In this document: piece after piece, positions 1 through 56,600 of the stretch
Layout: each line of letters begins with the position of its first letter
How positions within the stretch are numbered: the first letter of the stretch is position 1
Assembly: GCF_964355755.1 (NCBI RefSeq)
Contig: NC_092677.1
Span: 26,027,175 to 26,091,174, forward strand
DNA length: 64,000 bases
DNA from: Antedon mediterranea
Taxonomy: Eukaryota; Animalia; Echinodermata
Reading direction: 5' to 3'
Position numbers and translations under genes: made by a program
Notes under the pieces: model-generated
What the model was told of the DNA's origin: nothing
Databases searched by the model: none
Seen by the model: the letters and a program-made list of their open reading frames with translations, nothing else

Positions 1-1025
1 AATCGGGTAAAGGTACCTGCCGCAATGGACTTTGTAGTAAGTTTGCATTTCAAGAAAATCACATACACAAAATACGCAATACTCAAATTTCGTTCACCTC
101 ACGTATTATGTTGATCTCGTGCCGCATCGAGTAGAAAAATAAAAACAGTACCTATAGTCGATGTATTTCGAACATGTCTGCTTCTGTCAACGTGGAAATC
201 TAACCTTGGTTCTTTTTACAAATTTGTATTTCCCTGATTCGTTCGTTCATTCATTCGATTTTAAATGTTTTAAATCAATATTTTTAAATCCTTGTGTCGA
301 CCAGACGCCCCTCTGGGGGAACGTGACCCTTGACTATGATTTATCCTTCACTGGAAGCCTACACTTTCCGCTAAAACATTGACAAAAACATGTTGAAGTC
401 GGGAAATTTCTACGAAATTCTATTTCTGGAACGTCTGTGACGTGTACGTGACGTAGATAAAAAAGTTATTTGTGGTTGTTTACTTGGTGATAATTACACT
501 TTTAATTGGTCCTAATAAGACCTGCAGGCTATAATCAAATGTAATACTTAAGTGCAATATTAAGTGCCAGAACCATCGACTTAAAGGGTCACTCCGGGTT
601 TTACATTTATATTGTTCTATAGCAACAATATTGATATAAACCCACTTATTTTCCGACAGCAAAATGAACGTCGTAAATTAAGTCCCTTTCTTTAAAATGG
701 CGCTACGGAATTTTTCTGGTGTCAAAAGATAGGAAATTCAATCATTCATCAAAATTGAGGCATTCTAAGGTTATTTAAAATGTTGTTGTGGAAAAAGTTG
801 ATATGATAAACAAAAAGACATTTGAAATCAGGAGCTTACTTTTATAAGTGAAGTGTACAAAATTATCTGGACTCACTTTAATATGAACCATGAATTAATT
901 ATAAAGAAGTTTATTTTAGATGTTCAGTTCAGTTTATAAGAAATGCCAAATGTGTAACGAAATGATTTATGAATGTAAGTGTTAAACGGCCACCACTTAA
1001 CTATGCTACTTTGAATTCTTTTTAG

Positions 1026-1055
1026 GTGACTGTAAAATGAAGGAAAAGGATTGCG
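1026..1055 (+). CDS. EGF/ShK gene micro-exon (DCKMKEKDC)
   Basis: tttag acceptor, gtaag donor, 30 nt, phase 1-1. Confidence 0.6.
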
Positions 1056-8548: not shown

Positions 8549-8650
8549 ATGGATGCATATGATGAAGATATATCCGAAAATAAATTTTATCGAACCCTGC
8601 TAAATAAGCACAAGCATTTGTACGACAGAGCAGCAGAAACGAGATGGATG
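8549..8650 (+). CDS. ANKRD27: ANKRD27 coding exon 1
   Basis: aagATGG Kozak context; [34 protein letters not shown]; gt donor at 8651; acceptor at 8526-8527 implies an upstream 5'UTR exon. Confidence 0.9.
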
Positions 8651-32600: not shown

Positions 32601-35600
32601 TAGGTTATTAGCTCATTACTGCAGTAGATCTTGTGTTGGTGTACAGTACATCTAATTTATTAGCTAATTACTGCAGTAGATCTTGTGTTGGTGTACAGTA
32701 CATTAGGTTATTAGCTCATTACTGCAGTAGATCTTGTGTTGGGTGTACAGTACATCTATTTTATTAGCTCATTACTGCAGTAGATTTTGTGTTCACATGT
32801 ATAATACATCTAGTTTATTAGCTCACTACTGCAGTAGATCTTATAACATTTTAATATTCAATGTTTGTTAATACTAATATAGTGTTGAAAAAAACACATA
32901 ATGAATTTAAAATGTCAAGATAAATAGCTGTAAGCTAACAAAAGTGTTGTACGTCAATATAACATTCAGTACAGATTATTTTAAAACACTGTGTAATTAA
33001 TCAAATTGACTTTGACAAAAGATGTGAAAATTTTAAAATCTTAGAGTAATTATTTAGAGGTTACCTTTGCAGTTGCACTTATTATCGTCAGTTTAATCAT
33101 GTTTTGCACTTTGTGATTACTACAAGCCTGCAGGCCTACAACTAAATGTACAACAAGTAAAAAGCTCTTCTATGTAAAGCTCTGTCTATACTATCAAACT
33201 TTATTTGAAAAAAAAAGTGATGTGCCCATATATGGACACGATGATGTCATATCACTACCGTATTTGGGCATATTACTACTATATTTGGGTACATCACATT
33301 TTTTTGTCAAACTAGTTTGATAGTTCAGATCCACTGGAATGATAAACATATTGATACTATACAACTCAATTGTCTTGCTACTGCTTTTGTGTAGTTTTTT
33401 ACCTCACATTTGAGTGTACTGTTAAAAAGGAAAATAAGAGTGAATTAATTAATAATTAATTAAGAATTCTATAACAAAAATCATTTTAAAGCTGCAAAAA
33501 TGAAAATTTTTGTTTTTGTATTTTTAGACTGGTGCAAACTGTAAACAAGCGAATGCTAGAGGCAACCTACCCTTACACGAGGCGGCAAGGAACAATTACG
33601 TTGAACTGGTTGAACTTCTTTCAAATAAATCACCATCAACTGTTTTATGTAGGAATAAAGCCCAGTTAACACCTATCCAACTATCACAAGTAAGAAACTA
33701 TTTTTTTTCTATCAAAAAATTGTTTCAGTTATCCACAACTTAACTCCTTGTGCTTTTATAGAATCATCTTATTTTTTGTTGTTGAATATATAATAGTTAT
33801 AAATATATTTAATTTAAAAAATTAAATTATTTGTCTGAAAAATCTGTATGTTAAGGAATAAAAATCAAAAAAATTACCTCAATATTCATTCTATAGGACA
33901 ATTTACTCCATATACTACAATACCCTGCATAAATAAATTCACTCCATACAACAATGTACAGTCCATACAACAATACACTCAATATATAAATTCACTCCAT
34001 CAAAATGCACTGCAAATGCAACAGTACACTCTATATGCAACAATACACTCCATATATAAATTCACTCCATATATAAATTCACTCCATATACAACAATACA
34101 CTCCATATATAATTTCACTTCACAAAAATTTACTCTATATAAAAATTCACTCCATTACAATTCACTCCATATATAAATTCACTCCATATACAACTATACA
34201 CTTCATATACAACAATACACTCCATACAACAATACACTCAATATATAAATTCACTCCATAACAATTCCCTCCATATATAAATTCACTCCATATACAACAA
34301 TACACTCCATATATAACAATACACTCCATATATAATTTCACTTCACAAAAATGTACTCTATATAAAAATTCACTCCATTACAATTCACTCTATATATAAA
34401 TTCACTCCATACAATAATACACTTCATATATAAGTTCACTCCATAACAATTCACTCTATATATAAATTCACTCCATATATAAATTCACTCCATATATAAA
34501 TTCACTGCATATACAACAATACACTCCATATATAACAATACACTCCATATATAAATTCACTCAAAAAAAATTTACTCTATATAAAAATTCACTTTATATA
34601 AAAATTCACTCCATAACATTTCACTCCATAACATTTCACTCCATATATAAATTCACTTCATAAAAATTCACTCCATATAAAAATTCAATCCATTACAATT
34701 CACTCAATATATAAATTCACTCCATATACAGTACAAGTTGTGTTTAAAAAGGTAGTTGAAAATCCTCTTGTCCTAATTTACTAAAAGTACATTGAAAGTA
34801 ATTTGGAATAATTAAAGATGCCCAACATATAATGAGATATTCTAATTGCCAAAGTTCAAATTAAGATTACAATTATATATCATGACCCTTGTGGATTGAT
34901 TAAACTCAGTGTCTGAGATTAAATAACAAAAGAAAGTGTTGATAGTTGCATATTCAGCTGACCTATGACCCCTTCAGTAAAGTTCTATTTTAAAGTGGAT
35001 GATTTTCTATAATTTAAAAGAGCATTTTGTATTTAGTTTTGTCATAATAAACGTTAAAACAAGTAAGTGAGTATGATTTATAATTTCCTCTGCCTCAATC
35101 TTCTTCATGTAGGGTTTTATTTAAGCTTTAAATGTCAAAGGTTAGGTCAAAGTTCAGTTTAGAAAGAAAGAAGAAATTACTTATTGATCATTAAAAGGTA
35201 TAGGAAGTCACAATACCCAAGTTTTAGATTCTGCTTATTTTCTTTCTAACATTAACAGTGTTTAATAGTAATTTAATACAATCGTATTTTGGAACTAATG
35301 ATGGTCAAACCCCAACAAATTGTCCCCTTAAGGCCCATTTACACTAGGGCGATAACGATCGACGATAAAAAGATAAATATGCATTTTCCATACCTAAAAC
35401 AAAAGAATTTAAAAAAGTTTTCATCCTAGAACTATAGGATTATCATCTATGCTGCCTTTAATGAAAATAATATTTCCACACATCCAATCAAATGACGTCA
35501 TGATTAGTAAGAGCAATAATATCGTTACAATACAATACAACGATTTTATTGTTTTATTGATCATGACGTCATTTGATTGAATTTTCAAAAATATTATTTT

Positions 35601-38600
35601 TATCAAATACAGCATACATGATTATCCTATAGTTCTAGAACGAAAACTGTTCTAATTTCTTTCGTTTTATGCAAGAAAAATGCATGTTTATCTATTTATC
35701 GTCGATCGTAATCGCCCTAGTGTGAATGGGCCTTTAAATAGGAAATTGTCCCCTTAATAGTCCCCTGAATATAAGTTGGTTGTTAAATTGAAACTATAAA
35801 GTATTGCCCCTTGTTCGTTTCATGGCAAAGTTTCTCCTCCCTCTGTAAAGCTCTGTCTACACTATCAAACTTTATGTGACAAAAAAATGTGATGTGCCCA
35901 TATATGGACATGATGATGTCATATTACTATCATATTTAGGTATATCGCTACCATATTTGGGCACAACACACTTTTTTGTAAAACTAGTTTGATAGTGTAG
36001 ACAGAGATTAATAGTATAGTGCAACTTCTAACATTTGTCAACAAAGCCATTGGAGTTTATGACATCATTATAATAAGATCATTATTTTGAAAAGCAATTA
36101 CTACTACTAACAATTAATGTTTATTACTCAGTAATATAATGGTTTAGGTAACATTGAATTTAAATTAAAGTATGTTTCTAATTTCCAACTGAAGAAGTAA
36201 CTAGATATTTCCATATTGAATAATTAGAAAATAATTAGCTATTCATTAAAACTAAATCAGTAAATTGTAATTACCACCATAGTATCATTGATTCTTGATG
36301 GTCATCCGCAGGGAAAGATTTATCTATCCACATATAATTACTGAAAGTCTTCAAGGGATTTCGTAGTGGCATACTTCTGCTTTTGCTGCAGTATTGGCTA
36401 TCATTGCTTTTCAAGTAACTGATTAAAGGATACAAACACAATAATGACACAGACAGGTCTCGAACCCATGCCTCTCAAATGGCGCCTGATATCCCTTACT
36501 ATTGTGTCATACTGCTCTCTCTTTTAACTTACAAAGAAGAACTCATTTTCAAATTTAATAGTTATTTTGTAGGTAATTTAAATACATTTTAATTTGTTTC
36601 AAATACCCAGTTCAGTTAATAGATTTTAAAAATATTTTCTTTATTTCTAAATTCTAAATTTATCAATTTTATTGATTTCTGTCAACTTTGTTCATCCGTC
36701 AAGCTCAGTAGCATTGCTTAAGTTATCAGATAATTTCCAATTTATTTTGATTTCCATTAATTTATCTTTTATCTAACTAATGCATTGGATCAATTGTTTT
36801 TTAAAGTGAAGTTCGTCACAATATGTCATTTGTTATAAATATTCCCTATTTTGATCAATGACCATTAATTTTAATGACAGTTGGATCATTGTAGATTTTT
36901 TTCAAAATACAATAGTTGACTAGAGGAAACTGAACTCAACCCAACAACACAAGTTTGAAATAAACATTCTTTTAATGAAATGTTTGCCAGAAATACTTCT
37001 AATTTTACACATTTTCCAAGAAATGCAAAGGTTAATAATATAGGTAGAAATTTACAAAATCTACTTTAATTTCTTTTTAAAATCTTCTTTTAAATAATAT
37101 TAATTATTATTTATTACAATCAGTACTTCCATGTACTGAAAATTGACCCTAGTATTACATAAGATACAAGTTGTTGACTTGCCTCCTGCCATAGGAAGTG
37201 AGAAATAGTAAAGAAGTGAGAAATTTATGCCGTTTTGCTGATGTTTTTTAATGTAAACCTTCTGATATTTAATTGTAAATTTCAAGTTCTATGGACGGGT
37301 CAATCATCCATGATTTAAGAGAATTTGCTAATCTTAGTATCTTTAGTTAAGACTATTACAAACTGGATTCTAATAAGCTGTTGATTATGTTATTGTCATT
37401 CAAGTGCCTATCCTTCAAACTATTGTCATTTTCATGTTAAAAATTGTGTCTTATAAAATGCTATAGATAGAGTAGCATTGATTCTTAGCCTTTGATTGGC
37501 TATACAATTTCTGTGTTTGCTGAAAAATGACTCGATTATCCCAAGTTATATAATATATAATAATGGTATTGTCGCCAAAGAATAGGTTGATGTAAAAATA
37601 GATTATTTAATTGTGAAAAGGAAATTACTGCTTGCTTCTAGTCTAATCTGGCAGAAGACGCATCGACATCAAAGTAAACTTTAAATGCAATTATACAGCT
37701 AGCAGTAAACACTTTATACCTAGTAGTTGATAGCACTAACCTATTGTGGTAAATTATTAAAGGCTACTGCCTAGTCAGAAAGATAGTTCTAATTATGCGC
37801 CATAGGCGGTTTTCTATCTTTATGCTTAGTGTAATCAACGCAGGCTTCGATTAAGTTTTATCATTTTGATATCTTCCCATTGTTGTGTTCGAATGATATG
37901 AATATTTTCATTGCATTGTTCGTCAACTGAGGTAAATTTGTTTCACATTTTCACATCAGAAGTCATCGAACCTGGGATATATAAAAATAATTGTTATTGT
38001 ACAAAACCCTGTGTATTAATATTACATAACAAATCATCATCATCCACCACCCTCATCATGACATCGTTATCATTGCCAACAGCATCATAATTATTGATTC
38101 ATCACTCCATATCTTAACACTGCCATCATTATCATTATCATCATTATCTTCACTCTACATAATCAATATCAATTTCTATGCTTGATATTTTTCTGCAATC
38201 CTTTTTCTACAGAAAACTTCGAATTTTATTAAATTATTCTAATATCTAAAAAGTTATTACGGTCTTTCAATAATAATTGTTAAATTTACTGAGACGCCAA
38301 AGACCTAAGCTGTACTAGTCCCAGGACATGTCAATTCAATTACGTGAAATCACTATAAGGCAAGTTAATAGTACCTAGAAAAACCACAATAATCATCATC
38401 AACATAGGCCCCGGCTTTCTATGGTAAAAAGTACATTAATTTAATGATCAGTCTGTTTCATTTTATTAAGCAGAAGAAGCATGTACAGCATAAACTGAGA
38501 AATGCATAACAAACACAATCAATAATAGTATTTTTATTACATATAGTGTTTTGCTTATAACAGCAGAGTCGCTGTTGATCGATACAATAACGTTAAAACG

Positions 38601-41600
38601 GTTATTTTTGTAAGCACTCAGTTAATAATATTTTATCAATTCTTGCTTTGGGGCCTTTATGCTTGAATTCCCTGTTAAAAGGCGCCAAACGGCATGGAGA
38701 TCGAGGAGGAAATTGTTTTCAATGATTTATGAATATACGGATATCATGATCACAAATGTTGTTTAGCAAGTGTTAGATTTTGATAAGGGTTCAGGGCCGT
38801 AGCCACCAGTACGGTTGGTAAGGTTTCAACCTGACCACTTTTCACAGAGGCCTTTGGCAACCCAGTGGCTTGAACAGAGATTGTTAATTTTTTTTGCAAA
38901 AAAAAACGCACCACTTATCTTCTTTTATCTTCAATTCTCCCGTTATTAATTAGATTCTAATTTACATAAGAATCGTTAAAGTAACTTTTATTGATACATT
39001 ATGTTGATAATATCAGGGTCCTGATAATACCAGGGTCCTGATAATACCAGGGACCTGATAATACCAGGGACCTGATAATACCAGGGACCTGATAATACCA
39101 GGGACCTGATAATACCAGGGTCCTGATAATACCAGGGTCCTGATAATACCAGGATCCTAATAATACCAGGGTCCTGATAATACCAGGGACCTGATAATAC
39201 CAGGGACCAGATAATACCAGGGCCCTGCTAATACCAGGAACCTGATAATACCAGGAACCTGATAATACCAGGGTCCTGATAATACCAGGGACCTGATAAT
39301 ACCAAGGACCTGATTATACCAGGACCTGATTATACAAGGACTTGATAATACCAGGCCCTTATAATACCAGGGTCCTGATGATACCAGGGTCCTGATAATA
39401 CCAGGGTCCTGATAATACCAGGGTCCTGATAATACCAGGGTCCTGATAATACCAGAGACCTGATAATACCAGGGACTTGATAATACCAGGGTCCTGATAA
39501 TACCAGGGTCCTGATAATACCAGGGACCTGATAATACCAGAGACCTGATAATACCAAGGACCTGATTATACCAGGACCTGATTATACAAGGACTTGATAA
39601 TACCAGGCCCTTATAATACCAGGGTCCTGATGATACCAGGGTCCTGATAATACCAGGGTCCTGATAATACCAGGGTCCTGATAATACCAGGGTCCTGATA
39701 ATACCAGGGTCCTGATAATACCAGAGACCTGATAATACCAGGGACTTGATAATACCAGGGTCCTGATAATACCAGGGTCCTGATAATACCAGGGTCCTGA
39801 TAATACAAGGGTCCTGATAATACAAGGGTCCTGATAATACCAGGGTCCTGATAATACCAGGGACCTGATAATACCAGGGTCCTGATAATACCAGGGACCT
39901 GATAATACCAGGGACCTGATAATACCAGAGACCTGATTATACCAGAGACCTGATAATACCAGAGACCTGATAATACCAAGGACCTGATAATACCAGGGTC
40001 CTGATAATACCAGGGTCCTGATAATACCAAGGACCTGATAATACCAGGGTCCTGATAATACCAGGGTCCTGATAATACCAGGGTCCTGATAATACCAGAG
40101 ACCTGATAATACCAAGGACCTGATAATACCAGGGTCCTGATAATACCAGGGTCCTGATAATACCAGGGACCTGATAATACCAGAGACCAGATAATACCAG
40201 GGACCTGATAATACCAGGGACCTGATAATACCAGGATCCTAATAATACCAGGGTCCTGATAATACCAGGGACCTGATAATACCAGGGTCCTGATAATACC
40301 AGGGTCCTAATAATACCAGGGTCCTGATAATACCAGGGTCCTGATAATACCAGGATCCTAATAATACCAGGGTCCTGATAATACCAGGGACCTGATAATA
40401 CCAGGGACCAGATAATACCAGGGACTTGATAATACCAGGGTCCTGATAATACCAGGGTCCTGATAATACCAGGGACCTGATAATACCAGAGACCTGATAA
40501 TACCAAGGACCTGATTATACCAGGACCTGATTATACAAGGACTTGATAATACCAGGCCCTTATAATACCAGGGTCCTGATGATACCAGGGTCCTGATAAT
40601 ACCAGGGTCCTGATAATACCAGGGTCCTGATAATACCAGGGTCCTGATAATACCAGGGTCCTGATAATACCAGAGACCTGATAATACCAGGGACTTGATA
40701 ATACCAGGGTCCTGATAATACCAGGGTCCTGATAATACCAGGGTCCTGATAATACAAGGGTCCTGATAATACAAGGGTCCTGATAATACCAGGGTCCTGA
40801 TAATACCAGGGACCTGATAATACCAGGGTCCTGATAATACCAGGGACCTGATAATACCAGGGACCTGATAATACCAGAGACCTGATTATACCAGAGACCT
40901 GATAATACCAGAGACCTGATAATACCAAGGACCTGATAATACCAGGGTCCTGATAATACCAGGGTCCTGATAATACCAAGGACCTGATAATACCAGGGTC
41001 CTGATAATACCAGGGTCCTGATAATACCAGGGTCCTGATAATACCAGAGACCTGATAATACCAAGGACCTGATAATACCAGGGTCCTGATAATACCAGGG
41101 TCCTGATAATACCAGGGACCTGATAATACCAGAGACCAGATAATACCAGGGACCTGATAATACCAGGGACCTGATAATACCAGGATCCTAATAATACCAG
41201 GGTCCTGATAATACCAGGGACCAGATAATACCAGGGTCCTGATAATACCAGGATCCTAATAATACCAGGGTCCTGATAATACCAGGGTCCTGATAATACC
41301 AGGGACCAGATAATACCAGGGACCTGATAATACCAAAGACCTGATAATACCAAGGACCTAATTGATTTGATTTGATTTGATTTATTTCGGTATCAGTACA
41401 TAAATTATCACAGACATACAATTAAAATTAGCAAATCAAAAAATACCAAAATAAAACAAGGATGCCAAGGATAACTCATAAAAGTCCTCTACGGACTTGT
41501 TTCCACTGAGGTCCTTTGAAAGAACAGCAAAAAGACAAACAATGCAACATAAAAAAATTACAAAAAACGAATTAATTCAACCTTTCTATTATTGTTGGCA

Positions 41601-44600
41601 GTGCTATTTTACATAATAGTGTACATTCATATTCAAATATGGTAATGAAACCTTTCTATTGCATTTTACGAATGTATTCATATTTTTTAATACATGAATT
41701 TAGTAGAGTAACCTTTATAATTACTAAAGTTACCTGTACTATTTTACATTGTGCATTCATATTATTCAAAGTATTATAAACCAACCTTTGTTTATAGCTG
41801 TACTATTACATTATTACATTACAAATTTGATATAGCACTCTTAAAATAAAACCATTATCAAAAGCGCTGTACATTGAAATGATGTTTCTTAATGTTGTTG
41901 GAAAAGAAACGTTTTTAGTTTATGTAAAGTTATCTGTACTATTAATTACATGAGTGAGTTCATATTTCTCAATGCTTATATGTATTGCGCTATGACCCAA
42001 AATGGCGACTCACCATCCATAAGCTCTATTCATTTCATTGCATTTATTTCGTCAGAAAAGAACAAATATAAAACAAAAGAAAAGAGTTCAAAATCCAAAA
42101 GACTGGTTAACCAAAAAGTGAACATTGAAAATCTAGGAATAAAAAGGCAAATTTAAATTTGATGACTTGCATATCCTTGATTAAAATCTTTAACTAATTC
42201 GTCACAAACATCTATCCCATAATTTCTTTCAACATTTTTGACAAACAGAAGATTCTTGTGTATACTGTAGATTCTCTGGCTGTACTATTTTCCACATTTC
42301 CCCATGTTTAATGGGTGTACAATTTGTCCCTTTTTCATTATTATGAAAACTCAATTGCTTTTCTTCGCATCTCTCACAAATACATTGGCACATAATTGTA
42401 TGAATTATTTCGATCACATTTGTATGAATTATTTAGATCACATTTGAATGAATTATTTAGATCACATTTGAATGAATGACAGTTATATAATTCCTCCTTC
42501 CTGTTGACAATCGTAAATCATTCACATTTAATAACTAATCTGTGATATAAATCCTATAATAAATCTTGCTTAATCTAGTATGTTTTTTACGGATTATAAT
42601 CATGATCATAGAAAATATAATTTGAGAAGTATTACCGGGGAAGAAGGAAATTAGTTGTTGAATGGGCCATTTTAATTTCACAATAGTTATTCACAAAAAA
42701 ATATTTACCTAAAAAATTGTAATTGAAAGTAAAAAATATTCAAATTGACTGGAATTTAATGGGTTTTTGGTTGAATTTAACTGTTTTTTTTCCTAATCTG
42801 TTTTTCTACAAAAGTGATTAACTATAAAAACTACAAAATGGCATATTCAAAGTCTTTTTTTTTTATTAATCTTCATTTTACATATTTTTGGTCGACAATA
42901 CAGGGTCTGTCGAAAATAATCACAATGCAAAATTTGTAATCATTTTAGTTTTAAATAAGAACAAAAACAATCTTTGTTTTTCACCGCTACAAATTAATAA
43001 TGGTGCCACACTGATTCTACAAATTTGTAGAAGATTTGTTTTTCTACTTTACGGTAACTTTAACATTCTCATATCGTGATTACAACTTATATCATTAATT
43101 CTATAATATAATATTACAATTCAACTAAACTACATATTTGATATTATATTCTGTAAGATATTTCGACCTACATTAAAATAATATCATCTAAGAAAACGTC
43201 TCTTCATTGACGTAATAATTTGTTAATATGAATGATAATAAATTGTTTGTATGAATGTTTTAATCATGCAAAACCAACTTCTAGTCATCTTAATTGTTCA
43301 TAAAGTATTTCAAGACTCAAAACCCTGTCGGCACTATCAAACTTTATGTGACAAAAAATGTGATTTGCCCATATATGGACACAATGATGTCATATCACTA
43401 CCATATTTGGCACATCACATTTTGTGTGGGCAGAGCTTTACATGTTTATAATCCATATTTAACTACATACCTTGATCGAAATGTGATGATATTCTGATGG
43501 AAATTTATTTTATTGACGTAGGTCTATTATCACATAGACTTTAATTATCAGTACTTAATTTATATGAAAAAAAAAATGTTGTTACTGAATTTATTGATTT
43601 TCAAGTAAAAATAATTGTAATGTTTAACATATATTGATCACTGTATGAAAAGGACTATTTATTTTCTTTATTATTTTAACTCCAAAATTGACTACTTGCT
43701 TTATGCACTTTAAATTTACAGTATTTTTAATTTTTACAAAACAAAAGGAAGCACAACAACAAATTGAACTGTAACAACTGTTACTGTGCAAACATGTTTC
43801 TGTCTGTTTCTATCTATATATATATATATATATATAAATCCAAAAGCAAATTACTGAAAAAATGACAATGCTGTGGGTATCAGTGGCTGGATCTCAATGG
43901 AGATACAAAACAAAAGCGAAAAGCTAAATCAAAACGAGAAGTAAAACAGCCAGAAAAGTTAGCAGAGCTTTCGGGCAACACTAGCCCTTCATCAGTGCTA
44001 TATATCCAATCTGCAGACAGTACTGTTTCGAACTTATTAGATCTCGTCAGTGCAGCTCAGGTTTCGAAATGAAATGTACCGCAGAACTGGCACAATATAT
44101 AGGCTGAGCCAGGTATGCGGGACATGGTACACTGATTATGAACACAAAGAGTGCACAAGCTCAACGAGCGTGCTTTGCTAAATGCTAATAGTATTCACAA
44201 CAAAAATGCACCGTACCAAACTGAAGAGTGCTCTACAAAACAACATACTATATATGTATATAGCAGATATACTGTATGAAGAGTGTACAGTATCCATATA
44301 AAATACTTCTCCACCTAAAATTTTTAGTTAAAAACCATAGATTTTTCAATATTTTAATTTAAAGGGATACAACTACAGAAACTATATTAAATAAATTCTT
44401 TTGGTTCTGAATATAATAAACTGGAAAATTATTACTTTTTCTGTTGAATCAAATAATACAGACACATGCCTTTTCTCTTGTGTAAAGATCCATGCTTTTT
44501 GGCTAAATATATGTGAACTTGAATTGAATTTGTATACATTTATTCCAGTACTATACTATGAATATTAGATTTGCAATAAGTTAACATGAATCATAAACTA

Positions 44601-47600
44601 GCCGCGAAGTCTTCTACAGAACTATGTGTTGAATTATTCTCATTACTGAATAATATGATCTGAAAAAAAATAATTGGCCAATTTCCATAAATAGATACAT
44701 TTAAGCCCTGAAGATGTAGGTTATTTATAACTTTCACTAGCAATGCTGTCTTTAAATGTTTAATGAAAATGGATTCCAAATCTTACACTTAATACGTGCG
44801 TCCTGGAGGTATTCTTTATACTGCTAGATTTATGTAATAGAACGAGTGATAGCTAATTTAATTGTAATTATAGTTTACAGATGTAGATCCCTTTAAAGAA
44901 CATCTCAACTTATTACCAGATTTAAAGTGTAAAAAGTAAGAAAATGCCATGGCAACTTTGTAATTATTATAGGTACAGTACGGTATAGATCTTTTAAAAA
45001 AATGTCTCAACTTATTGCCAGATTTAAATTGTAAAGTAAATATATGACACAACAACATAGGTACAGTATGGTAGAGATCCCTTCAGCAGAATACGCAGAG
45101 AACGTGCATGATTGTGATATACATATCTGATATAAATATTTTGATCCCACAGCTTCAGCTATAGATAGCAGTAGAAGTCCCTTTAAATAACTTGTCAACT
45201 TATTGCTAGATAAGTACAACAATTAAGAACACGCTACAACAACTTTGATTGTAACTATAGATAACATTAGAGGTCCTTTAAATAACTTATTGCTAGATAA
45301 GTACAAAGTGTAAGAACATGCTACAACAACTTTGATTGTAACTATAGATAGCAGTAGAGGTCCTTTAAATAACTTTTCAACTTATTGCCAGATAAGTACA
45401 AAAAGTGAGACAATTATGTTTTGATTTGAATAGTAGGCTTTTCTGTCCTCGTGAGGTAATTTCCCGATTAATCGTAATCAAAACGGTACTGGGCTTGGTC
45501 TATTAGCGTTCCTGCTCCCAACCAGTACATCCATTCATAGAAGCTTTAATGAAGTAAGCCTACCTGGTGGTAACCATAGAACGGTTCCGAGATAACGACT
45601 ATACTTCGGCTTTAGTCGATAGAAGATTGAAAAAATTGTTAGAGATAGAGTATACGATGTTTGATTATGTGTAGATGTGTGTTCTGTTCTTTTATTCAAA
45701 TGATGTTATTTATTTAATACTTTAGGCTACATTTTTTAATATCAATCAATTAAATTATCGTAGATTGTACAGGCCTATTATGCGAAAAATATTATTAAAT
45801 AAATTTGTTATATAAATTATTATTATTATTATAATATTAATAAAAATATATTTGTTAGTATAAATTAAAAATATAGATATAAGGAAGAAAAACAAAGAGA
45901 TTATGGAGCGGCTGTACCAGAATATACAACACTAGGTATTGTAAAGTTAATATACAACAATTTTAGGCGATCTTGTCAATACTTATTATTAATAGAATGT
46001 GGGCATTGGTGCTCTACAAGTCTAGGTTCATACATTTAGGTTGTTCTGATGTTGCTTTTATATGTCTTTTTTAAAAATTGTTTCCTTCTTGCTATACTAC
46101 TTTCTCTTATTCTTATTTTCCTCAAATATGTTTCAAATTATTTTCTTCCATCTCACCCTCCATGTTTGCTTTGGTTTATCCATATTGCATTGCATACAAT
46201 ACCACCTCACCTCCTGTATGTCTCATCTAGAGGATGATGCAACAACCTACTTTCCATTGAGTACAGTAATTGTTGTTTCACTTTTGTTTCAAATAATGTA
46301 CCTGGATCATGACATCAAATCATGTTTCATTCAACGTTGAATTTATTTAAATGATTTAATGTTTACTTTGATAATATTCTATAAATATTTGATCTTGGAA
46401 ATGTAGGTTATTTGAGTTTGTAATTTAAGCTTTGAATATTAAAGCACTAAAAACATGCTTTCTAAATGTCACATGATAAACTTTATACAAATCTTCTTCC
46501 AATTAAAATCTATCCAATTAGATCTCTTCGCTGAAAGACCAATTTAAAACCTTCTAATGCAGTTAAATGTTGCACAAATAGTAACAATAGGTAATTGAAA
46601 TCGTCGCTAATTAAGATATAAACACTAGGGAGGCATTTGATAAATAGAAGTAAGGATGCGGGAGGCATGGGAATATCTGTTAGGATGCTAGGAAAGAGAA
46701 TGTTTACCAGAAAGGCATTACATTAACAATCAAATAAGAATCTGCTTTAACAATAAAGAAGATTGACTGTACACAGACATGATAAATGAATTTTATTCAT
46801 TGATTAAATCAAGAAAATGAAATCTCAACACTGTTTAAAGCTCCATCTACAGTATAAAACTAGTTTGACAAAAAAAAGTCTGCCCAAACATGGTAGTGAT
46901 ATGCCCAAATATGGTAGTAATATGACATCATCGTGTCCATATATGGGCACATCATTTTTTTTTCACATACAGTTTGATAGTGTAGACAGAGCTTCATGCT
47001 TCTTTTCACCAGGATAATATTTATATGTCGTTCTTTATAGCGCTTTAATGCACAAAGCTTCTAAACGCTCCAAATGATTACCCCAGTCATGTATTTAACA
47101 CGTATGGACACCTCCTAGGATTATGTAGCTATTAATTAGTGGTGAAGTCTATTTGATTTGACCTTACCATGTACACCTGGGTGGAGAGAGGCAAACGTAA
47201 GTGTCTTGCTCAAGGACACAGTCAATGTTGATTTCCAACTCCAGATAGATAAGTATATTAAGATATTGTACAACTATAGCAAAGGTTTGCTAGTTGATAA
47301 AAAAAAGAAAATTTCTAAACCTGAAAACTGATAATCTTGTAGTATGTTATTGATAAATATCGAGAAATATGTACAGTAAGTAGAAAAGAGATCAACACAG
47401 CATGCCCGAAGAAAGCTGCCTTAAGTTAAAAAACAAAATGAATTGATCTATATATTTGGATGATGAGATGATTGATGGGAAGTGATATGTCATCAGTAAC
47501 CGTTTCTGCTGCAGGCGTACACAAGAACATCATCTATTACAAATTCGTAATCTTTTTCAAATACTGATTGTGTTTCATCAGATATGATACTTCTCGTCTT

Positions 47601-50600
47601 TTTCATTCAAGCTCAAATACGATAAATATTTATTTCTTGAATGTTTTGGATATTTGCATTTTTTTTCAATTAATATATATTGAAGATGTACAGTATTGCC
47701 ACCCTGGCTAAAATAATTTTTAACATTTTTTTCGGAATATTTTCTTTAAATGTCATTTAATAGTTATTCATTTTGACCAAATAATTGAATAACAAAAAAA
47801 AGGATTTACCTGAAAAAAAACTGTAATTTAAAGCACAAAATAGTCTGGCTGCCAGCCAATGGGTTTTTGGTTGAATTTAACCATTTATTTTGTCATTTTA
47901 TAAATGAAAACAATTTTTCTATGAAAGTGAATAAATTTAAAACTACAAATTAACCTCTTCAAAGTCTGATTTATTAATCTTCATTGTGCATGATTTTGGG
48001 AACAATACATCTTGAAACTTTGCAATAAGTAAGTAAAAATTCTTACATGAATTGATTTAATATGTAAGTTCTTGAGATATAATAATTTACAAGCATCATA
48101 AAATATGTAAGAAACATGACAAGTCGTCAATAAAATATTAAAATAAAATAAAATATTAAATTCAACTTAATATGACCTTTTATGTTATTGATATAATGAA
48201 TTGATGAAACCATTTTTTCTACTAAATATGTACAGTAAATTAAAATGATTACATAATCTCAAAGAACATTTATTTTGTTTTATTTAAAGATATATTGTGC
48301 TGAAACAATAAACAATTAACACATTTTTTGTTGAATATGTCATTTTAATGTCACATAATAGTTATTTACTTTGACCAAAAAACTGGATCGAAGAAAAAAA
48401 TTATTTACCTGAAAAAATGTAATTTAAAGCAAAATATACTAAAATTGTCTGTCAGACAATTGTTTTTGGTTAAAATTAACTGTTTCTTTTACTTTTAATA
48501 AGTGGAATAATTATTTTGTTTACATTTTTTTTTCTACAGAAGTGAATAACTTATTTAAACGGTAAAACTGCCTAGCCAAAATCTGATATTATTAATCTTT
48601 ATTTTTCATGTTTTGGGGGGACAATACATCTTTAAAACAATATTCAGTTTAAAGATGTATTGTCCCTTTGACTAATTCCAAAAAAATAAAAAATAAAAGA
48701 TTTCGAAAAAAGGTGGGTCATTTTGAAGTATCATAATAGTTATTAACTATCACCAAAAGTTTTTAGAAAAAAAAAAAAATTTAACTGAAATACAGACGTT
48801 TTTTTGTTTAAAAAATAACTTTGACTTCCAAAATACAAAATACAAACAAAATAAAACTTCCTCATGATCTGTGTGAAAATACCTTCTTAACCGTGACGAG
48901 TTTTAAACAATCCTAATTTAGCATATACATAATGCATACTAATGTGGTTTGAAATCTTTGTTTACTTTCGCTCGTGACGATTTTCCAGATGAAATGTAAT
49001 CAAACTAATTTACCTGTTAATTACGTAAACTTGTTTTTGGCTCAAATTTTCGACTTAAAGTGAATAACTTTAAATATTACTTTGATATGGCCACTTTAAA
49101 TTTAGAATATTTTGACCTTCATTTTTTTGTGTTTCAAGGGACAATACATCTTTAACATTCATGTCAATGTATGTTTTACAATAGAACCATGGAGCTATTT
49201 ATAGCTCCATGCTAGAACTTAAAGACCAATTTTTTTTTAATGAAGACCTTAAAGATGAAAAATCCATACATACATCATGGATACAACAAATTAATATGAC
49301 AGCAGTGAACAGGAGAATTAAATAAAACATTTTTTATTATACATTCATTGAAATTAACCTAGAAAATGTTAGAGGTTTACTAGATTTTATTGCTGTTTTG
49401 TTAGTTCAAATTATAATAGTATGTTATTGATCCTTATTTAGTCTGGTTTAGATTCATAAAAAATGATTAATGCATTGAAAATATATGATCTTATCTTACA
49501 TGCATTTCAAACCATTCAGGTTAATAGCCTGTCAAACTTTGTGAAAAAAAAATGTGATGTGCCCAATTATGGACATGATGATGTCATATCACCATATTTG
49601 GGCATATCACTACCATATTTAGGCACATCACTACCATATTTAGGCACATCACACTTGTTTTAGTCAAACTCTGTAGACAGAGCTTTAAACAAAACTTTGA
49701 CTATTCCTACAAGAATGTCTACATTTTGTCGAAATCCTTTCGCTACATTTTGTCTTGGCGGTATGTTACATACTTACGAGAATGGGAATATTGAATCAAC
49801 GTAAAAGTCTTGTTATACATCAAAACATACATTTAATGTGTACATATTGTGTCTATGTAGCGCACCAAATGAATTTGTCCATTTTGTTCAATTAAAAATA
49901 AGTACGGTGCCTGTCTTTCAACTCTAGATACGTGAGGTATCTTCCTTATCTGTACTTTAACATTAAGAGACAAGCCGATTGAATGCGTAATTATAAATAA
50001 TCTATTAGCTGACTGCATTCTCCCATCAGCGGCATACTTCCCCCGAGTCATAAACATACTTTTGACACTTTCTAATGTTATGTGATGAATGTTGTTAGTA
50101 CAGATAGTGCTATTTGAAGGGATTAGTTATTATAGTGTTTCTTTAAATATTATACCAGTATTCTCTTTTTGATAATCGTGGCTGCAGAACAGAATCTTCT
50201 TTTCAATCATATATCCCACGTGTTACCAGAATTTGGAACAACTTACCCGGTGAAATTCGCAACTTAGATATTTCTGTTAGTTTAGTTTTAAAACCAAATT
50301 GTTAAATTATCTAAATATATATTTTTAAAATAATTTTGATATTGAAAATGTGTGTAGTTGGTCGCTTTCTTGTACGATGCTTTAATTGTAGAACGTAAAT
50401 AAATAAGTTGTTTTTTTTGGTTTGTTTTTGTGACCAACTAGCATAGATGTTTAGCACCTGTTTGGTCTTTCCTTGCCTTTTATATTTGTTTTGTCTTCTT
50501 TATATTGTATATGGCAGAATATTGAGTAAATAAATAAATAAATAAGTATAAATGCATAGATGTCTGTATTCGCTCCAATTCCTTTCTCAGGTGTACCTCC

Positions 50601-53600
50601 TCCCCTTCTTCATCCACCATTCACTAGCAGTCTCCTTTTCCATAATTCTCTATTTAGTGTTTCATTTTTTACCTCTTTTAATTTCTCAGATATAAATCAA
50701 AATTTCTCTTGGTAGTTTTTAAATAAAGTTTTTTTAATGTCAAATCGGTCATAGTTATTTGACCGGTTGAATAACAGGTCAACTTAAGGCATAATTGTAT
50801 CGAACCAATGGCAGTATCAGTTTCTTTAATCAATGTTTCTGTGCCATTATTCTTTGTATTATTTCTGCTTTTATCAATCCTTCCAGATTTAAATGCTATA
50901 ATTCGGATTTTGGATGTTGATTTTTATGTCTGAGGAGACTGTAAAATATTTAACATATTCAGTTTCATGTATTTTGTTATGTTGCTTCCTTAAACATTTT
51001 TTTTTGCAGTTAAACTAAAATAAAATTACACTATGTTTAATTTTTTATTTGGAAGCTGTTATATTTTATTTAAAATGTTTACTAGCGTCACATATATCAC
51101 ATGTGCTGCCTGTACAGTATTATGTTAAGTTTTGTATGACCAATGATACAGGCATCACATGTCATACATTGGTGACACTGTATTACAGCATTTGCCTATG
51201 ATACAGGCAGCACATGTGATACATATGTAACACTGTATTGCAGCATTTGCCTTTGATACAGGTATCACATGTGATACATTTGTGACACTGTATTATAGCA
51301 TTTGCCTGTGATACATGACAAGTTGTAGAATACCAATGCCAAAATAAATGTTTGTTGACTTTTAAATTTTAGGAGACCATTAAATTATAACCATCTAATG
51401 TATATCTCATTACCATCTTTTGCAATTGATTTAAAGCAGTTAAAGTAATAATTTCATAAATTGCTAAAATAAAATAATGTAATACTTAGCGTTATTGCCT
51501 TTTATTGCCAATAAACTTACAAAGTTAAAATGCCAAAAATAACAAGAGTGACTACAAATCACCAACATCTATAAATCATTGTAAAATAAATTGATATTTA
51601 AATTAAAGTTTATTGTTAAATAACAGCCAATATAAATACAAGTGCAATAAAATGAATAATGAAACATATTTTGGATATGACATGTCCTGTACATAAATAA
51701 ATATAATATATTTATTAAATATAATGAAAACAAGACCTCCGCCAGGATTAAAAAGAGGAAAAGTATAAAGAATCAGATAAAGATCTGAAATTAGTAAGAT
51801 GATAAAAAGTAGTCCAGAATTAAGATATGTTGGTCCGGATTGCCTAAATATGCCTAATATGGAGTCATTTAATAGTTAACTACAAATTAGTTTAAACTGC
51901 AATAACTTATTTTGATAACATAGATTTTTATTTGTTTCAATCTAGATATTTATGAGACAACAAATGCGATAAATCTAGCAAAAGCTAACTAAATAATTGC
52001 AGATTAAACAAAATATAGTTACAGCAGTAAATGTTATGTAATTAATCCTAAGACTTAATGGGTTTATTTGTCATCCATCACTTGGCGGTTTATCATGGTT
52101 TGATAAGAACAGAAATGAAAAACAGATTGAAAACAAGGTTGCAACTGGGTCGCGGTCTAAAAACACATGAAACTGGGGCTTTATTAGAGATTATATAGAA
52201 ATTGTGTTAAGAATACTCAAAGTAATTTGTCTGTTCTCCTAAAATAGTAGTAATTGCCTTTGACTAGTACTGGCTTAAGGTCTTGTATTTATATGCTGAT
52301 GTAAACTTAATACTACATCTTAGTATCATAGCAGACCTAGTTAGATAAATCAACTTTATTATGGCACAACGATGCTTAACTATTAAGAAGCTTTTTAAAA
52401 TGTTCTTTTTATAATACTTCATTCGAAAATGTCTGGCCAAAAGATTTTAGAAATGTATGATTGTTTTAGTGGCCGTTTTATTCCGTAGTAGTGGAGCTGT
52501 AGCTTGGTGGTTAATGTGCTTGCCTTTCAATCCCAAGGTCCAGGATTCAATCCCGACCTAGTTCCAGGGTTGTAACTAACTCTTTCAACTCCACTCCCTA
52601 AGCCTAAAATAAGACTTAGTTTATAAGCACAATAAATTATTAAATAGTTTATCCACCCTGTAATTGGCGAGTTACTCGTTGTTGGATACATATGAAAAAA
52701 AATATATAAAAAATTCAAAATGTATTACCTTGTTGGGTTTGAGACTTGTCTTTTCAAACCTGATCATCATTAAATCATGTTAAGTTGTTATATTATATAT
52801 ATGTAGATTAAAATATATTACTATATATAAAATTTGTAGTTTTATTTGTGATTTTGTATTTGAATGATAGTTTGTATAAATTAATATTGCAGGTCAAAAT
52901 AGCATTTAAAAACTAGGACTGTAGTTCATTTTATAAACATTTTCATGGATGTGGGTGACATATTATTATGCGTACTGTACTAGGAGATTTCAAAGCAGTT
53001 AGAAGGTGACTGCTTACTGAAAATGCATTCATAAACAACCAAATTAATCTCAATTTTAAATCTCTAATCTTTGATCTTAAAGATGTATTGTCCCCCAAAA
53101 ACATAAAAAATAAAGATAAAATCAGACTTTGAATAGATTATTTTGTAGTTTTAATCAAGTTAATCACTACCGTAAAAAAAAAATGGAACAAATAATGGTT
53201 TTCACTTATGAAATGAGAAAATAAATGGTTAAATTCAACGAAAAACTCTTTGGCTGGCAGCCGATTTGTGTATTTTTTTGCTTTAAATTACTGTTTTTTA
53301 GGTAAACTATTTTTTTTCGATCCTATTTTTTGGTCAAAGTGGATAACTATTATGTGACATTAAATGGCGTATTCAACAAAAAATGTTAAAACAATTATTT
53401 TTAAGTGGGAAAATACATCTTTAAGAAATGGAACAAGATTTTTTTTATGATAATTTTTTCTAAACAATAACAAAATGGTTACATTTCTTTTTTTATTCTC
53501 ACATTTTAACAATATTTTCTCTGTCAAATCCATTATTCTTAAAGATAAAATGCAAAAGTAAAATGTCAGTTTTAAAATATTCTTTTACACCAATTGGTTT

Positions 53601-56600
53601 TTTAGTTGAACTAATGCATAAATAGTCTTTACAATAAATTAGTGTACAATTTGTCACTAAATGGTTAGAATTACATCTGCCAACTTCATCGTTTGATGCA
53701 TGCTTCTGCTGGCCGGCGATCTGACTTACGGCCACAGGGTAACACGTATTTTATTCATACTTAAATAAAAATCAGAGCCAAGTTTGTAAACCATGTCTAT
53801 TGTATAACCTTTTAAGTATACGCAACGTTTGTGATATTAGCGAGGTCGTGTACTGCACTCGTTATGTCAATTGGCAATGCACCATGGAAACCTGTGATTT
53901 AGATCCAATCGGATTTTATGGATTTTAACTTTTTTTAAATGCTGACTCATATACGTTAATACTAGAATAAATGAACTCTTTAACTTTAAGATAAGCCTTC
54001 AGCTTTGTTAGCTTAGCTAATTATTTATATCAAAAGCATTTTATGTCAACAATTCTGTATGTGGACTGAATGAAGCAGTTCATATGATAACTTCTTCAGC
54101 AAACTGGTTAATTAATGTTTTTATGTCATTCAGTAAAAATAAAATACATTCATTGCTTTTTGAATTGTTTCCACCTGTTCTTTAATTATCTCTGAAGCTA
54201 TTTTTGTTTCATGCAGTATAATGAGAATTAAAGAATTATTTATTTAAAGAACAAAAATTGTTTGTGCTTGGTTCATCAAACTGGAAAAAGTAGAAGAATA
54301 AAATGTTTACTATTGCATAAAGTCAAAGTCATACTTTATTCATCCCTCACTGTGGGAAACCAGGTTCATGCAATTTTCCATATACATATTAAAATACAAT
54401 AAATTATAAACAAATGTAAAAACTATTACATTATGGTAAACAAACATTTCAATACACAAATAAAAGTTAGGGTTTATCTCAAAATTAATATATTTTTCTG
54501 ATGAATCTTTTCAACAATAAGACTATTGGAGTTTCCTCACTTTGGTTACTTTTATTTGTTCTTATTTGTTTGTTCATTTTTATACTGGGTGACCTCTTCA
54601 GTCAAAGACTGATCTCCCAGAGGACCCAGTTGGTGATCAGTGGCTGTGATGTACTAATACACCGGGGTAACCCCCTACTCGTCTCGAAAGATGTACTAGG
54701 TTCTTTAAAGTGCACACGAGCTAGTTGTGTACACTGGACCTACGGTTTATAGTCCTTATCCGAGAAGACTTGTTCTACCACCAGAAACATGGAGTGAGTG
54801 AGCCTCGAACCCTTGCCGATGTTATGGCTACGTAATTACGGTTCCACTGTCTTAACCGCTCGGCCACTCACTCACCACTTGGAACCATGGAAATCTTTTG
54901 TTTCAGGAACAGTATATACTGAGAAACATTATTCTGTAAAGCTCTGTCAAAACTATCAAACTAGTTTGACAAAAAAAGTGTGATGTGCTCAAATATGGTA
55001 GTGATATGCCCAAATATGGTAGTGATATGCCCAAATATGGTAGTGATATGACATCATCATCGGCCACTCACTCACTCAACTCACTTAGCTAATTCTTTTA
55101 CTCTGATACATTACAATAAATATTTTTAACAATAATACTTTGGTTAAGTATTTTCTTCTTCTAAACTTTGTTTATTTTATTGTTTTCAGAACTTCGAAGT
55201 TTCAAAGATTTTAAAGAAAGTAAATGAAAGTTACCAAGAGCAACAAGTTCTGTCGCAAGTTGCCGTGAGACCAACAACACTAGGTAAACTACATTATTCA
55301 ATAATAACTTCTAATTATAACAACTATCTCCTAAACAATTTTTATTTGGAGATGTCTTCTACAGTCACAAATCTTTACACTTTTGGCCAAACTCTATTTA
55401 AACTAAAATGAAACGCACATTAATAATGAAGGAAATTAAGAAACTAAATACCGCCCTCTATTGTTCACTGTCTACTTTTAGTGAGTATTTTATTAGAAAA
55501 AATTATCATGATTTGTAATTGCTAAAAAAATTATTGCAATAATATTATGTGTTTCTTGTTATGTAGTTATTGCTATGGATTAAGAAAGCAATAAATACAG
55601 CTGTTATTGGCATGTTACCAAATGTATTGGTAATTAATCCATAAAAACTATACGTGAGAAAAGCGAGTTGATGATTGATGATTAGTGACAAGGTTTCAAC
55701 AGCTTCATAATGTTAACACATTTGTTTTTTGACAAACGTATATAATTAGGTCCTGTGGGAGATTTAATACCATCGCTGTAATCAGGGTATTTGCATTTGA
55801 ATAATCAAAAAGAAGTGTACCTACTCAAGTACCTACTTTTTACTCTGAATATTAATGCAAAATAGTTATTATGATGTAATTAAGTGGGTTGACATTCACA
55901 ATGTTACAAACTTGAGGAGTATGCTGATCAGAATATCAAGTTTTTTTGTGTGGTATTTGCATGGAAATACTGTAAATCCCAACATTTTCGCGGTTTTACA
56001 TTTCCAACTATTTTGTTATCTTTTATTTTCATGATTTGAGTTTCTTGTCGTCTTCTACAATTTGGCGAACCAAATTGGTGATTGTATTTGTATCAAACAA
56101 TTGAATAGCGTCAGTAAAATGAGTGAATACGCGATTGTAAATTTAGGGATGTAAATAAATAAACATTTTGGCTACACAGTGTGCGAGGCATCATCAGTAT
56201 GACTCTACCAGAAAAAGCATGCGTTTTATTTTCAAATAAATAATAATATAGTTCCCACCTTGAGATTTTCTAAACCTATGGATGGATGGATGGATAAACT
56301 ATTTCATAATTTATAATTACTATTATAATAATTATAATTAATAAGTCTCATTTGAGGAGTGGAGTTAGGATTAAACTCTGGATCTTTGGATTGGAAGGCG
56401 AGCATGTTAACCACCAAGAAGCTACAGCATCACTACTAGCCACAGCTCCACTACTAGCTACAGCTTCACTACTAGCTACAGCTCCACTACTAGCTATAGA
56501 CAGCTCTACTATTAGCTACAGCTCCACTTTTTTATTTAATTTATTTTTTTATCAAACTTTGTTTAATGAGGGTGACCCACTACTAGCTACATTTGAGCTT

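What the first reader, a model, noticed from the sequence alone, without database searches (positions are those of the whole stretch)
43960..44055. Two back-to-back minimal hammerhead ribozymes antisense in the giant ANKRD27 intron
Seen: on the minus strand two complete hammerhead cores lie 10 nt apart. HHR-A (44055->44011) is CUGCA/CUGACGA/stem II/GAAA/CAGUACUG/UC^UGCAG. HHR-B (44000->43960) is UAGCA/CUGAUGA/A-GGGC..GCCC/GAAA/GC/UC^UGCUA. Each has a perfect 5-bp stem I closing at the cleavage site and a palindromic, loop-less stem III (ACAGUACUGU; AGCU). Established: minimal type I hammerheads with palindromic stem III typify Penelope-like elements and animal retrozymes, and are proposed to cleave as dimers. 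Inference: the two motifs differ in sequence, so this is a heterologous pair rather than a tandem duplication. Double cleavage (44016|44015 and 43965|43964) would excise a 51-nt 5'-OH/2',3'-cyclic-phosphate RNA that an RtcB-type ligase could circularise.
Basis: partly seen in the sequence, partly recalled or inferred. Interest (0 to 1): 0.85.

Follow-up and report, generated by a model that had tools for sequence, protein, structure and literature searches.

The report
Two mobile repeats' ribozymes meet accidentally
Both self-cutting RNA motifs are really there, but they belong to two separate high-copy repeat families that meet at this spot in an intron of a feather-star-like animal, likely because one jumping element landed beside the other, so the pair is likely an accident of known element types rather than a device for making a tiny RNA circle.

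Summary
Both hammerhead cores are exactly where described, antisense in a ~21.5-kb intron of a crinoid-type ANKRD27 gene, and far beyond chance. They are not one cassette. In contigs of public runs, pieces carrying HHR-B stop at 43994-43998 and pieces carrying HHR-A stop at 43999; no listed X1 or X3 piece crosses the join. Family A is a ~281-nt unit seen head-to-tail in two runs, ends in TA runs and folds well (z -2.4): a retrozyme-like family with a near-canonical type I hammerhead. Family B is a ~150-nt piece with the Penelope-type minimal hammerhead (extra A after A9, 4-nt palindrome). The outer two pairs of B's '5-bp' stem I are made by the junction. A and B stems III do not pair (-0.8 kcal/mol against -13.4 for A:A), so no cis heterodimer; B would need a second B in trans. 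This copy of A carries a private stem II mismatch, and family variants hit G8 and G12 at CpG sites. The 51-nt circle is arithmetically right but unlikely. What remains new: an apparently unreported crinoid retrozyme-like family. Cleavage and expression are untested.

The parts
44002..44267 (-). Family A copy: 266 nt of a ~281-nt tandem-forming, retrozyme-like unit; 3' end 14 nt after the predicted cut
   Evidence: Depth falls step by step from 44050 to 44286; head-to-tail joint 44267 to 44002 with 15 extra letters in X3 (table 5c) and the same letters at a loose end in X9 (table 7); fold z -2.43; lengths
44011..44055 (-). HHR-A: type I hammerhead, stem I 5 bp (extendable past a G-A mismatch), stem II 4 bp + 6-nt loop (or 5 bp + 4 nt), stem III 3 bp + palindromic tetraloop or 10-bp homodimer; predicted cut 44016|44015
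   Evidence: position 44032 differs from 99.7% of summed depth in X1, whose letter closes the stem II mismatch
43999..44001 (-). Junction: three A/T letters that belong to neither family, likely TA target DNA; two of them supply the outer two pairs of HHR-B stem I
   Evidence: Loose ends at 43998 and 43999 (table 7); flanks
43960..44000 (-). HHR-B: minimal type I hammerhead with extra A after A9, G10.1-C11.1, 4-bp stem II, 4-nt palindrome in place of stem III; predicted cut 43965|43964
   Evidence: fits the metazoan min-HHR consensus in PMC4209133
43837..43998 (-). Family B copy: ~150-160-nt piece, likely the 5'-truncated 3' end (pseudo-LTR) of a Penelope-like element; the exact 3' limit (43850 or 43837) is not fixed
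   Evidence: High summed depth 43817-43998; 80% match of 43832-43956 to 61781-61908, which lacks the hammerhead
43815..43836 (.). (TA)11 microsatellite at the 3' flank of B, the longest TA run in the window
33690..55186 (+). Host intron (~21.5 kb) of an ANKRD27/VARP-like gene
   Evidence: tblastn of P0001 and P0002 on the window

Best explanation
The two hammerheads are the marks of two different high-copy repeat families that meet at 43998|43999, likely because a retrozyme-like unit (family A) was inserted into a short TA tract at the 5' edge of a truncated Penelope-type copy (family B). Shown: two families, their boundary, the ~281-nt tandem unit of A, TA letters on both sides of A, and a (TA)11 run after B. 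Inferred: A is transcribed from tandem arrays elsewhere, is cut to monomers by its own hammerhead, is probably circularised, and is copied by a Penelope-type reverse transcriptase-endonuclease that primes ~14 nt after the cut site at TA targets. B is what is left of a Penelope-like insertion primed ~115 nt after its hammerhead and truncated 3 nt before the core. At this locus both are likely passive, decaying copies on the antisense strand. A might still cut as a monomer or A:A dimer if transcribed. B could cut only as a B:B dimer in trans or with protein help.
For:: loose ends after 43994-43998 (listed rows: X1 15+21+15+85, X3 10+17+14+76, X9 9) and before 43999 (X1 19, X3 18, X9 2; consensus ends in TA repeats in X1 and X3). 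All 8 X1 and all 8 X3 pieces listed among the longest start at 43999 or later, and summed depth dips at 44000-44004 to 6% (X1) and 3% (X3) of the B peak; none of the 32 listed pieces crosses the join; joint 44267 to 44002 at depth 594 where single-copy contigs of X3 have 37.5-53.5; stem III duplex A:A -13.4, B:B -2.5, A:B -0.8 kcal/mol; forced cis heterodimer +7.5 against -15.9 for two separate folds. A folds at z -2.43, against 0.24 for B and -0.35 for a flank of the same length. Literature: retrozyme repeats are 150-450 bp with canonical type I HHRs and co-exist with PLE min-HHRs (PMC7229834); PLEs tend to insert into or next to earlier copies (PMC6765202 passage); TA bias in Naiad and Neptune PLEs (PMC8557442 passages); B resembles the Acropora digitifera Neptune HHR, and A shares its stem III letters with a Saccoglossus motif (PMC4209133 supplement).
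Against: No whole genome was held, so copies could not be listed or aligned, and no RT-endonuclease ORF could be tied to B. Only 31 of 3109 and 32 of 44186 pieces were shown, and contigs break inside repeats, so rare A-B copies could be hidden. One X9 contig joins B and A letters with 13 extra letters (record 28), but it has only 25 letters on the B side, below the tool's 31-letter rule. No target-site duplication of 8 nt or more was found around the composite; the TA flanks are short on the left. The order of insertion is inferred. The other B-related copy in the window (61781) is not in a TA run.
Confidence: 0.76

Rival explanations
1. The join is a recurrent product of the copying machinery. 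A Penelope-type reverse transcriptase finished a B template and switched to an A RNA, or A homes to the pseudo-LTR of its helper element. A-B joins would then mark which Penelope family mobilises this retrozyme.
For: A second A-then-B arrangement in the same orientation in X9, with 13 extra letters and a different private change in A (44018 instead of 44032) (tables 3, 4, 8). B-to-B head-to-tail joints also end at 43998 in X3 (table 5). The A end used here is the family's usual 3' end. The PLE protein studied in vitro cuts AT-rich DNA in its own pLTR region (PMC11167929).
Against: The X9 record fails the tool's bridging rule and may be this same locus in a relative. The three junction letters look like the TA target DNA that follows other A ends. 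Random placement gives 0.0003-0.5 such joins per genome, and up to 100 times more if both families share a small target space (the genome size of 0.5-1 Gb and the 1% target space are assumptions), so chance is not excluded.
Confidence: 0.14
2. One reading: a working heterologous pair whose double cleavage releases a 51-nt 5'-OH/2',3'-cyclic-phosphate RNA that RtcB would circularise.
For: Both cores are intact, the junction happens to extend B's stem I to 5 bp, and B's stems I and II are well formed in the local ensemble (pair probabilities 0.72-0.94). RtcB circularises retrozyme monomers of ~350 nt in vitro (PMC7229834).
Against: The pair is not a family trait. A:B stem III does not form. B has no monomer stem III, and a single min-HHR showed no cleavage while dimers were weak (PMC4209133). 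A's stem II is damaged here and its stem III has pair probabilities of 0.01-0.02. The locus is antisense to the host gene.
Confidence: 0.04
3. The two families do abut by accident, but B is not a Penelope pseudo-LTR relic. It is a short independent element (a second retrozyme-like or SINE-like unit) whose 3' 66 nt also amplify as a minisatellite.
For: B 5' ends with unique flanks cluster just upstream of stem I. The 66-nt tail forms arrays at 61824-62627 and 63006-63183. No PLE ORF was seen in the window.
Against: The clustering may be a selection effect, since only copies cut near 43998 give long unbranched contigs. The motif fits the PLE min-HHR consensus point by point. B does not fold better than shuffles.
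Confidence: 0.06

Closest known systems
Metazoan non-LTR retrozymes (Cervera and de la Pena 2020, PMC7229834; Li, Clavereau and Pollet, bioRxiv 10.64898/2026.07.22.740005) - for family A
   Same: Type I hammerhead with 4-bp stem II and a short stem III capped by a palindromic loop; unit of ~281 nt within the 150-450-bp range; head-to-tail copies; GC 41%; no ORF; self-paired fold; co-existence with a PLE-type minimal hammerhead family.
   Different: This locus is a single, nearly full unit, not an array. No long TSD was found. Loop 1-loop 2 contacts, cleavage and circular RNA are untested. No crinoid example turned up in my searches.
Minimal hammerheads of Penelope-like element pseudo-LTRs (Cervera and de la Pena 2014, PMC4209133; Neptune-type example from Acropora digitifera) - for family B
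   Same: Extra nucleotide between 9 and 10.1, G10.1-C11.1 pair, palindromic 15.2-16.2 without a loop, 3-bp family stem I with a U-rich 5' flank, scattered single copies, 3' end ~115 nt after the cut (85-92 nt in the Anolis PAc element, worked out from PMC11167929).
   Different: No RT-GIY-YIG ORF could be linked. Stem II is 4 bp, as in the Acropora example, not the 7-8 bp of Schistosoma.
Double-hammerhead (dimeric) cleavage of newt/axolotl satellite and PLE RNAs
   Same: Palindromic stem III invites dimer formation.
   Different: It needs two copies with matching palindromes and stems I. A and B do not match, so the geometry cannot be used between these neighbours.
Rfam Hammerhead_HH9 (amniote intronic HHR)
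   Same: HHR-A aligns over the whole model (26.3 bits, E 3e-4) and lies in an intron.
   Different: Below the gathering score of 52; antisense to the host gene and part of a high-copy repeat, whereas HH9 motifs are recalled to be conserved single-copy sense motifs (from memory).

Membership tests
Type I hammerhead ribozyme (A and B) | Core C3-A9, G12-A15.1, U16.1-H17 with stems I-III, ends in stem I | tested here: met
Type I hammerhead ribozyme (A and B) | Self-cleavage at H17 | not testable with these tools
   Needs an in vitro assay
Non-LTR retrozyme (family A) | Tandem repeat unit of 150-450 bp bearing the HHR | tested here: met
   281-nt unit from a head-to-tail joint in X3 and a matching loose end in X9; met for the family, while this locus is a single 266-nt copy
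Non-LTR retrozyme (family A) | Canonical helix sizes and loop 1-loop 2 tertiary contacts | tested here: inconclusive
   Stem II 4 bp + 6-nt loop and stem III 3 bp + tetraloop fit; stem I is 5 bp, not 6; contacts not tested
Non-LTR retrozyme (family A) | No coding capacity, GC below 50% | tested here: met
   No ORF of 120 aa or more here; GC 0.41
Non-LTR retrozyme (family A) | Highly self-paired monomer | tested here: met
   z -2.43, 4 of 200 shuffles as good; modest, one control flank
Non-LTR retrozyme (family A) | TSD longer than 4 bp when present | tested here: inconclusive
   No shared word of 8 nt or more between the outer flanks of the composite; only TA letters flank A
Non-LTR retrozyme (family A) | Expressed as linear and circular monomer RNA | not testable with these tools
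   All runs laid were contigs; none on record as RNA
PLE pseudo-LTR min-HHR (family B) | Extra nt 9/10.1, G10.1-C11.1, palindromic loop-less stem III | tested here: met
PLE pseudo-LTR min-HHR (family B) | Linked RT + GIY-YIG ORF in full-length copies | not testable with these tools
   No genome held; none seen in the window
   Breakpoint at 43998|43999 in listed contigs of X1, X3, X8 and X9
   A:B -0.8 kcal/mol; forced heterodimer +7.5
   Listed variants of A at 1-4% hit G8, C11.1 and G12, all in CpG; no compensatory change listed; none listed in B's core; young families and the contig-end filter give little power

The most novel reading that the evidence does not exclude
Retrozyme-then-Penelope joins recur in crinoid genomes at the retrozyme's priming site and just before the Penelope hammerhead. 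They would be physical footprints of a Penelope-type enzyme switching between, or homing of, the two RNAs. That would name the helper family of an animal retrozyme directly, a link so far argued from co-occurrence and phylogeny.
Probability: 0.12. Interest if true: 0.55.

Novelty: new member of a known kind. Interest (0 to 1): 0.27.

Why it matters
It shows how a striking 'double ribozyme' can arise by one ribozyme-bearing repeat landing beside another, with the junction even perfecting a stem; that is a caution for motif scans of animal genomes. The by-product is an apparently unreported crinoid retrozyme-like family with a ~281-nt unit, testable by northern blot or RNase R sequencing. If A-B joins proved recurrent, they would bear on the open question of which autonomous element mobilises animal retrozymes.

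Tried and rejected
No whole genome was held, so there was no genome-wide BLAST, covariance model or covariation count. Collection scans: the pair pattern in metagenome contigs gave 1 hit, L001, which on reading is bacterial-looking coding DNA without a hammerhead, a chance match. The HHR-B pattern gave 0 in viral and 0 in GTDB contigs; HHR-A patterns gave 0 in GTDB and 0 in viral contigs. No RNA holder listed among 22 runs; X8 is only guessed to be RNA and is held as contigs, so nothing is said on expression. Summed contig depth is not a copy number: bounds run from ~70 to ~2250 for A and from ~300 to ~9400 for B in X1, and are used only to show both are repeats. Whether relatives carry the insertion at this locus could not be told (uncovered bins). 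Tandem duplication as the origin of the pair was rejected: the motifs share little beyond the core and have different family flanks. The 61.8-kb copy of B's tail has no hammerhead upstream. Earlier findings: nothing by sequence or place; eight reports from other genomes by words. Lunse et al. (PMC5785218) is not held and was seen only as cited in PMC6765202. The supplement of PMC7229834 could not be read, file 1 of the PMC4209133 supplement was not searched, and the supplements of the bioRxiv preprint were not seen; an echinoderm retrozyme or a mixed pair could be listed there. Paper searches for prior report: 'hammerhead ribozyme'+'crinoid' 0 papers; 'retrozyme'+'echinoderm' 1 listed, not on this; 'hammerhead'+'two different'+'Penelope-like'+'template switching' 0; searches listed no title on a heterologous adjacent pair. 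The library lacks most subscription journals.

Full report
Observation. The minus strand holds two complete type I hammerhead cores at 44055-44011 (A) and 44000-43960 (B), 10 nt apart, as described. A descriptor finds only these two in the 64-kb window; 200 dinucleotide shuffles give 0.005 motifs per window with a 5-bp stem I and no close pair. Rfam has no hammerhead at gathering score, but aligns A to Hammerhead_HH9 at E 3e-4. The host is an ANKRD27-like gene on the + strand: VPS9 plus ankyrin repeats, and the only named relative found for the query exon is from the crinoid Anneissia japonica, at 78%. The motifs lie antisense in the intron between exons 33531-33689 and 55187 onward, ~21.5 kb.

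The region is repetitive. No genome was held, so I laid Logan contigs of public runs on the locus. Over 43300-44700, summed depth in run X1 is 0-635 where the sequence is unique (one 843-nt contig identical over 290 nt has depth 300), 1.9 million at HHR-B and 0.55 million at HHR-A, and it falls in steps to 44286. The same shape appears in X3, X8 and X9 (organisms A, B and C in the tool's coding). Overlapping short contigs inflate such sums, so the bounds are wide: ~70-2250 copies for A and ~300-9400 for B in X1.

Two families, not one. On 43945-44085 depth has two peaks, with a trough at 44000-44004. Contigs bearing B leave the window sequence after 43994-43998 (listed rows: 136 in X1, 117 in X3, 9 in X9). 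They continue with a shared 5-6 letters that the window lacks, then unrelated AT-rich DNA. Contigs bearing A leave it before 43999 (19, 18 and 2), into TA-rich DNA. Of the 31 pieces shown (of 3109, the longest being kept), all 8 from X1 and all 8 from X3 begin at 43999 or later. None of the 32 pieces shown (of 44186) crosses the join. Two records touch both sides: X17 record 14 by six letters, and X9 record 28, which joins 25 letters of B to A through 13 extra letters and falls short of the tool's 31-letter bridging rule. So the A-B pair is at most rare. Because the family's own letters upstream of 43998 differ, family B's stem I is 3 bp plus a mismatch; the outer two pairs of the '5-bp' stem here are supplied by junction letters.

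Family A. In X3 a joint runs from 44267 through 15 letters back to 44002 at depth 594, against 37.5-53.5 for single-copy contigs. A loose end in X9 shows window 44253-44267 followed by the same 15 letters before 44002. The unit is thus ~281 nt, of which the window has 266. It has 41% GC, no long ORF and folds better than 196 of 200 shuffles (z -2.43; B 0.24; flank -0.35). Its hammerhead has a 4-bp stem II with a 6-nt loop and a 3-bp stem III with a palindromic tetraloop. At 44032, 99.7% of X1 depth has the letter that closes stem II, so the window's U-U pair is private damage. Other listed variants (1-4%) hit G8, C11.1 and G12, all in CpG, as expected of neutral decay; no compensatory change was listed. 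These traits match metazoan non-LTR retrozymes (PMC7229834, parts 2-4 of 6 read; bioRxiv 10.64898/2026.07.22.740005, parts 1 and 3 of 5). The same stem III letters occur in a Saccoglossus motif in the supplement of PMC4209133.

Family B. The motif has the extra base after A9, G10.1-C11.1 and a loop-less palindrome: the consensus traits of Penelope-element minimal hammerheads (PMC4209133, parts 1-2 of 4 and supplement file 2 part 1 plus passages). It closely resembles the Acropora digitifera Neptune example there. The copy ends ~115 nt after the cut, next to a (TA)11 run. In the Anolis PAc element reverse transcription starts 111-118 nt into the ORF and the cut is 26 nt into it (PMC11167929, parts 1-2 of 4), a similar geometry. 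A related copy without the hammerhead heads a 66-bp array at 61.8 kb. A link to a Penelope ORF is inferred, not shown.

Can the pair act together? A double hammerhead needs the two stems III to pair. A:A gives -13.4, B:B -2.5 and A:B -0.8 kcal/mol; a forced cis heterodimer scores +7.5 against -15.9 for separate folds. B has no monomer stem III. In the paper's tests a single min-HHR did not cut and dimers were weak, and the PAc hammerhead cut only with protein present. Invertebrate retrozyme hammerheads do cut as monomers, so A may be competent, though it is damaged here. The 51-nt product therefore needs antisense transcription plus a B:B dimer in trans; I put it at about 4%.

Mechanism. Most likely B inserted first, at a TA tract, and was truncated just before its core; A then entered the few TA letters left at B's 5' edge. 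TA letters flank A on both sides, other A ends also abut TA runs, PLEs tend to insert into or next to earlier copies (PMC6765202, passages), and TA bias is reported for some PLE clades (PMC8557442, passages). The order is inferred. A rough count gives 0.0003-0.5 such joins per genome by random placement, and up to 100 times more with a shared narrow target space (genome size and target share assumed), so chance suffices only if copy numbers are towards the upper bound or targets are shared. The main rival is a recurrent template switch or homing, hinted at only by X9 record 28. Earlier AI reports from other genomes describe TA-targeted, Penelope-like footprints for animal retrozymes; I treat them as leads that agree, not as support.

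Verdict. A real observation, with both parts of known kinds; the pairing is likely incidental. The crinoid retrozyme-like family is apparently unreported within the library searched. Interest 0.27.

Noticed in passing
window 61781-63186 (+): The 3' tail of family B, without the hammerhead, is amplified as a 66-bp tandem array (12.1 + 2.7 copies). It is interrupted at ~62627-63005 by a ~380-bp insert whose ends look like inverted repeats, possibly a MITE.
   Followed up: partly
window 63255-64000 (+): The ANKRD27-like protein P0001 (1474 aa) has a long acidic, Ser/Thr-rich last exon containing 126-bp coding repeats (63595-63923). The Anneissia protein P0002 (1299 aa) matches only its first ~29 residues here.
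   Followed up: no
window 26109-26175 (-): Weak Rfam tRNA hit (29.2 bits, at the gathering score), likely the head of a tRNA-derived SINE.
   Followed up: no
window 43319-43440 and more than a dozen other places: A very high-copy ~100-120-bp element carrying a 21-bp repeat unit is scattered through the window on both strands.
   Followed up: no
window 39005-41352, 20573-21342, 33900-34728, 32349-32842: Large minisatellite arrays of 17, 59, 17 and 52 bp in the introns; the 17-bp array explains the long ORFs at 39-41 kb.
   Followed up: no
window 44381-44568: A separate lower-copy repeat lies just outside family A's 5' end (depth rise in all four runs).
   Followed up: no
run X3, joint 43998 to 43945: Family B copies also occur head-to-tail, the downstream copy starting at the same base (43998) as in the window; 5' ends of B seem to gather just before stem I, which may be real or a contig selection effect.
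   Followed up: partly
L001 946-1021: The only metagenome hit to the pair pattern lies in bacterial-looking coding DNA and has no hammerhead: a chance match.
   Followed up: yes
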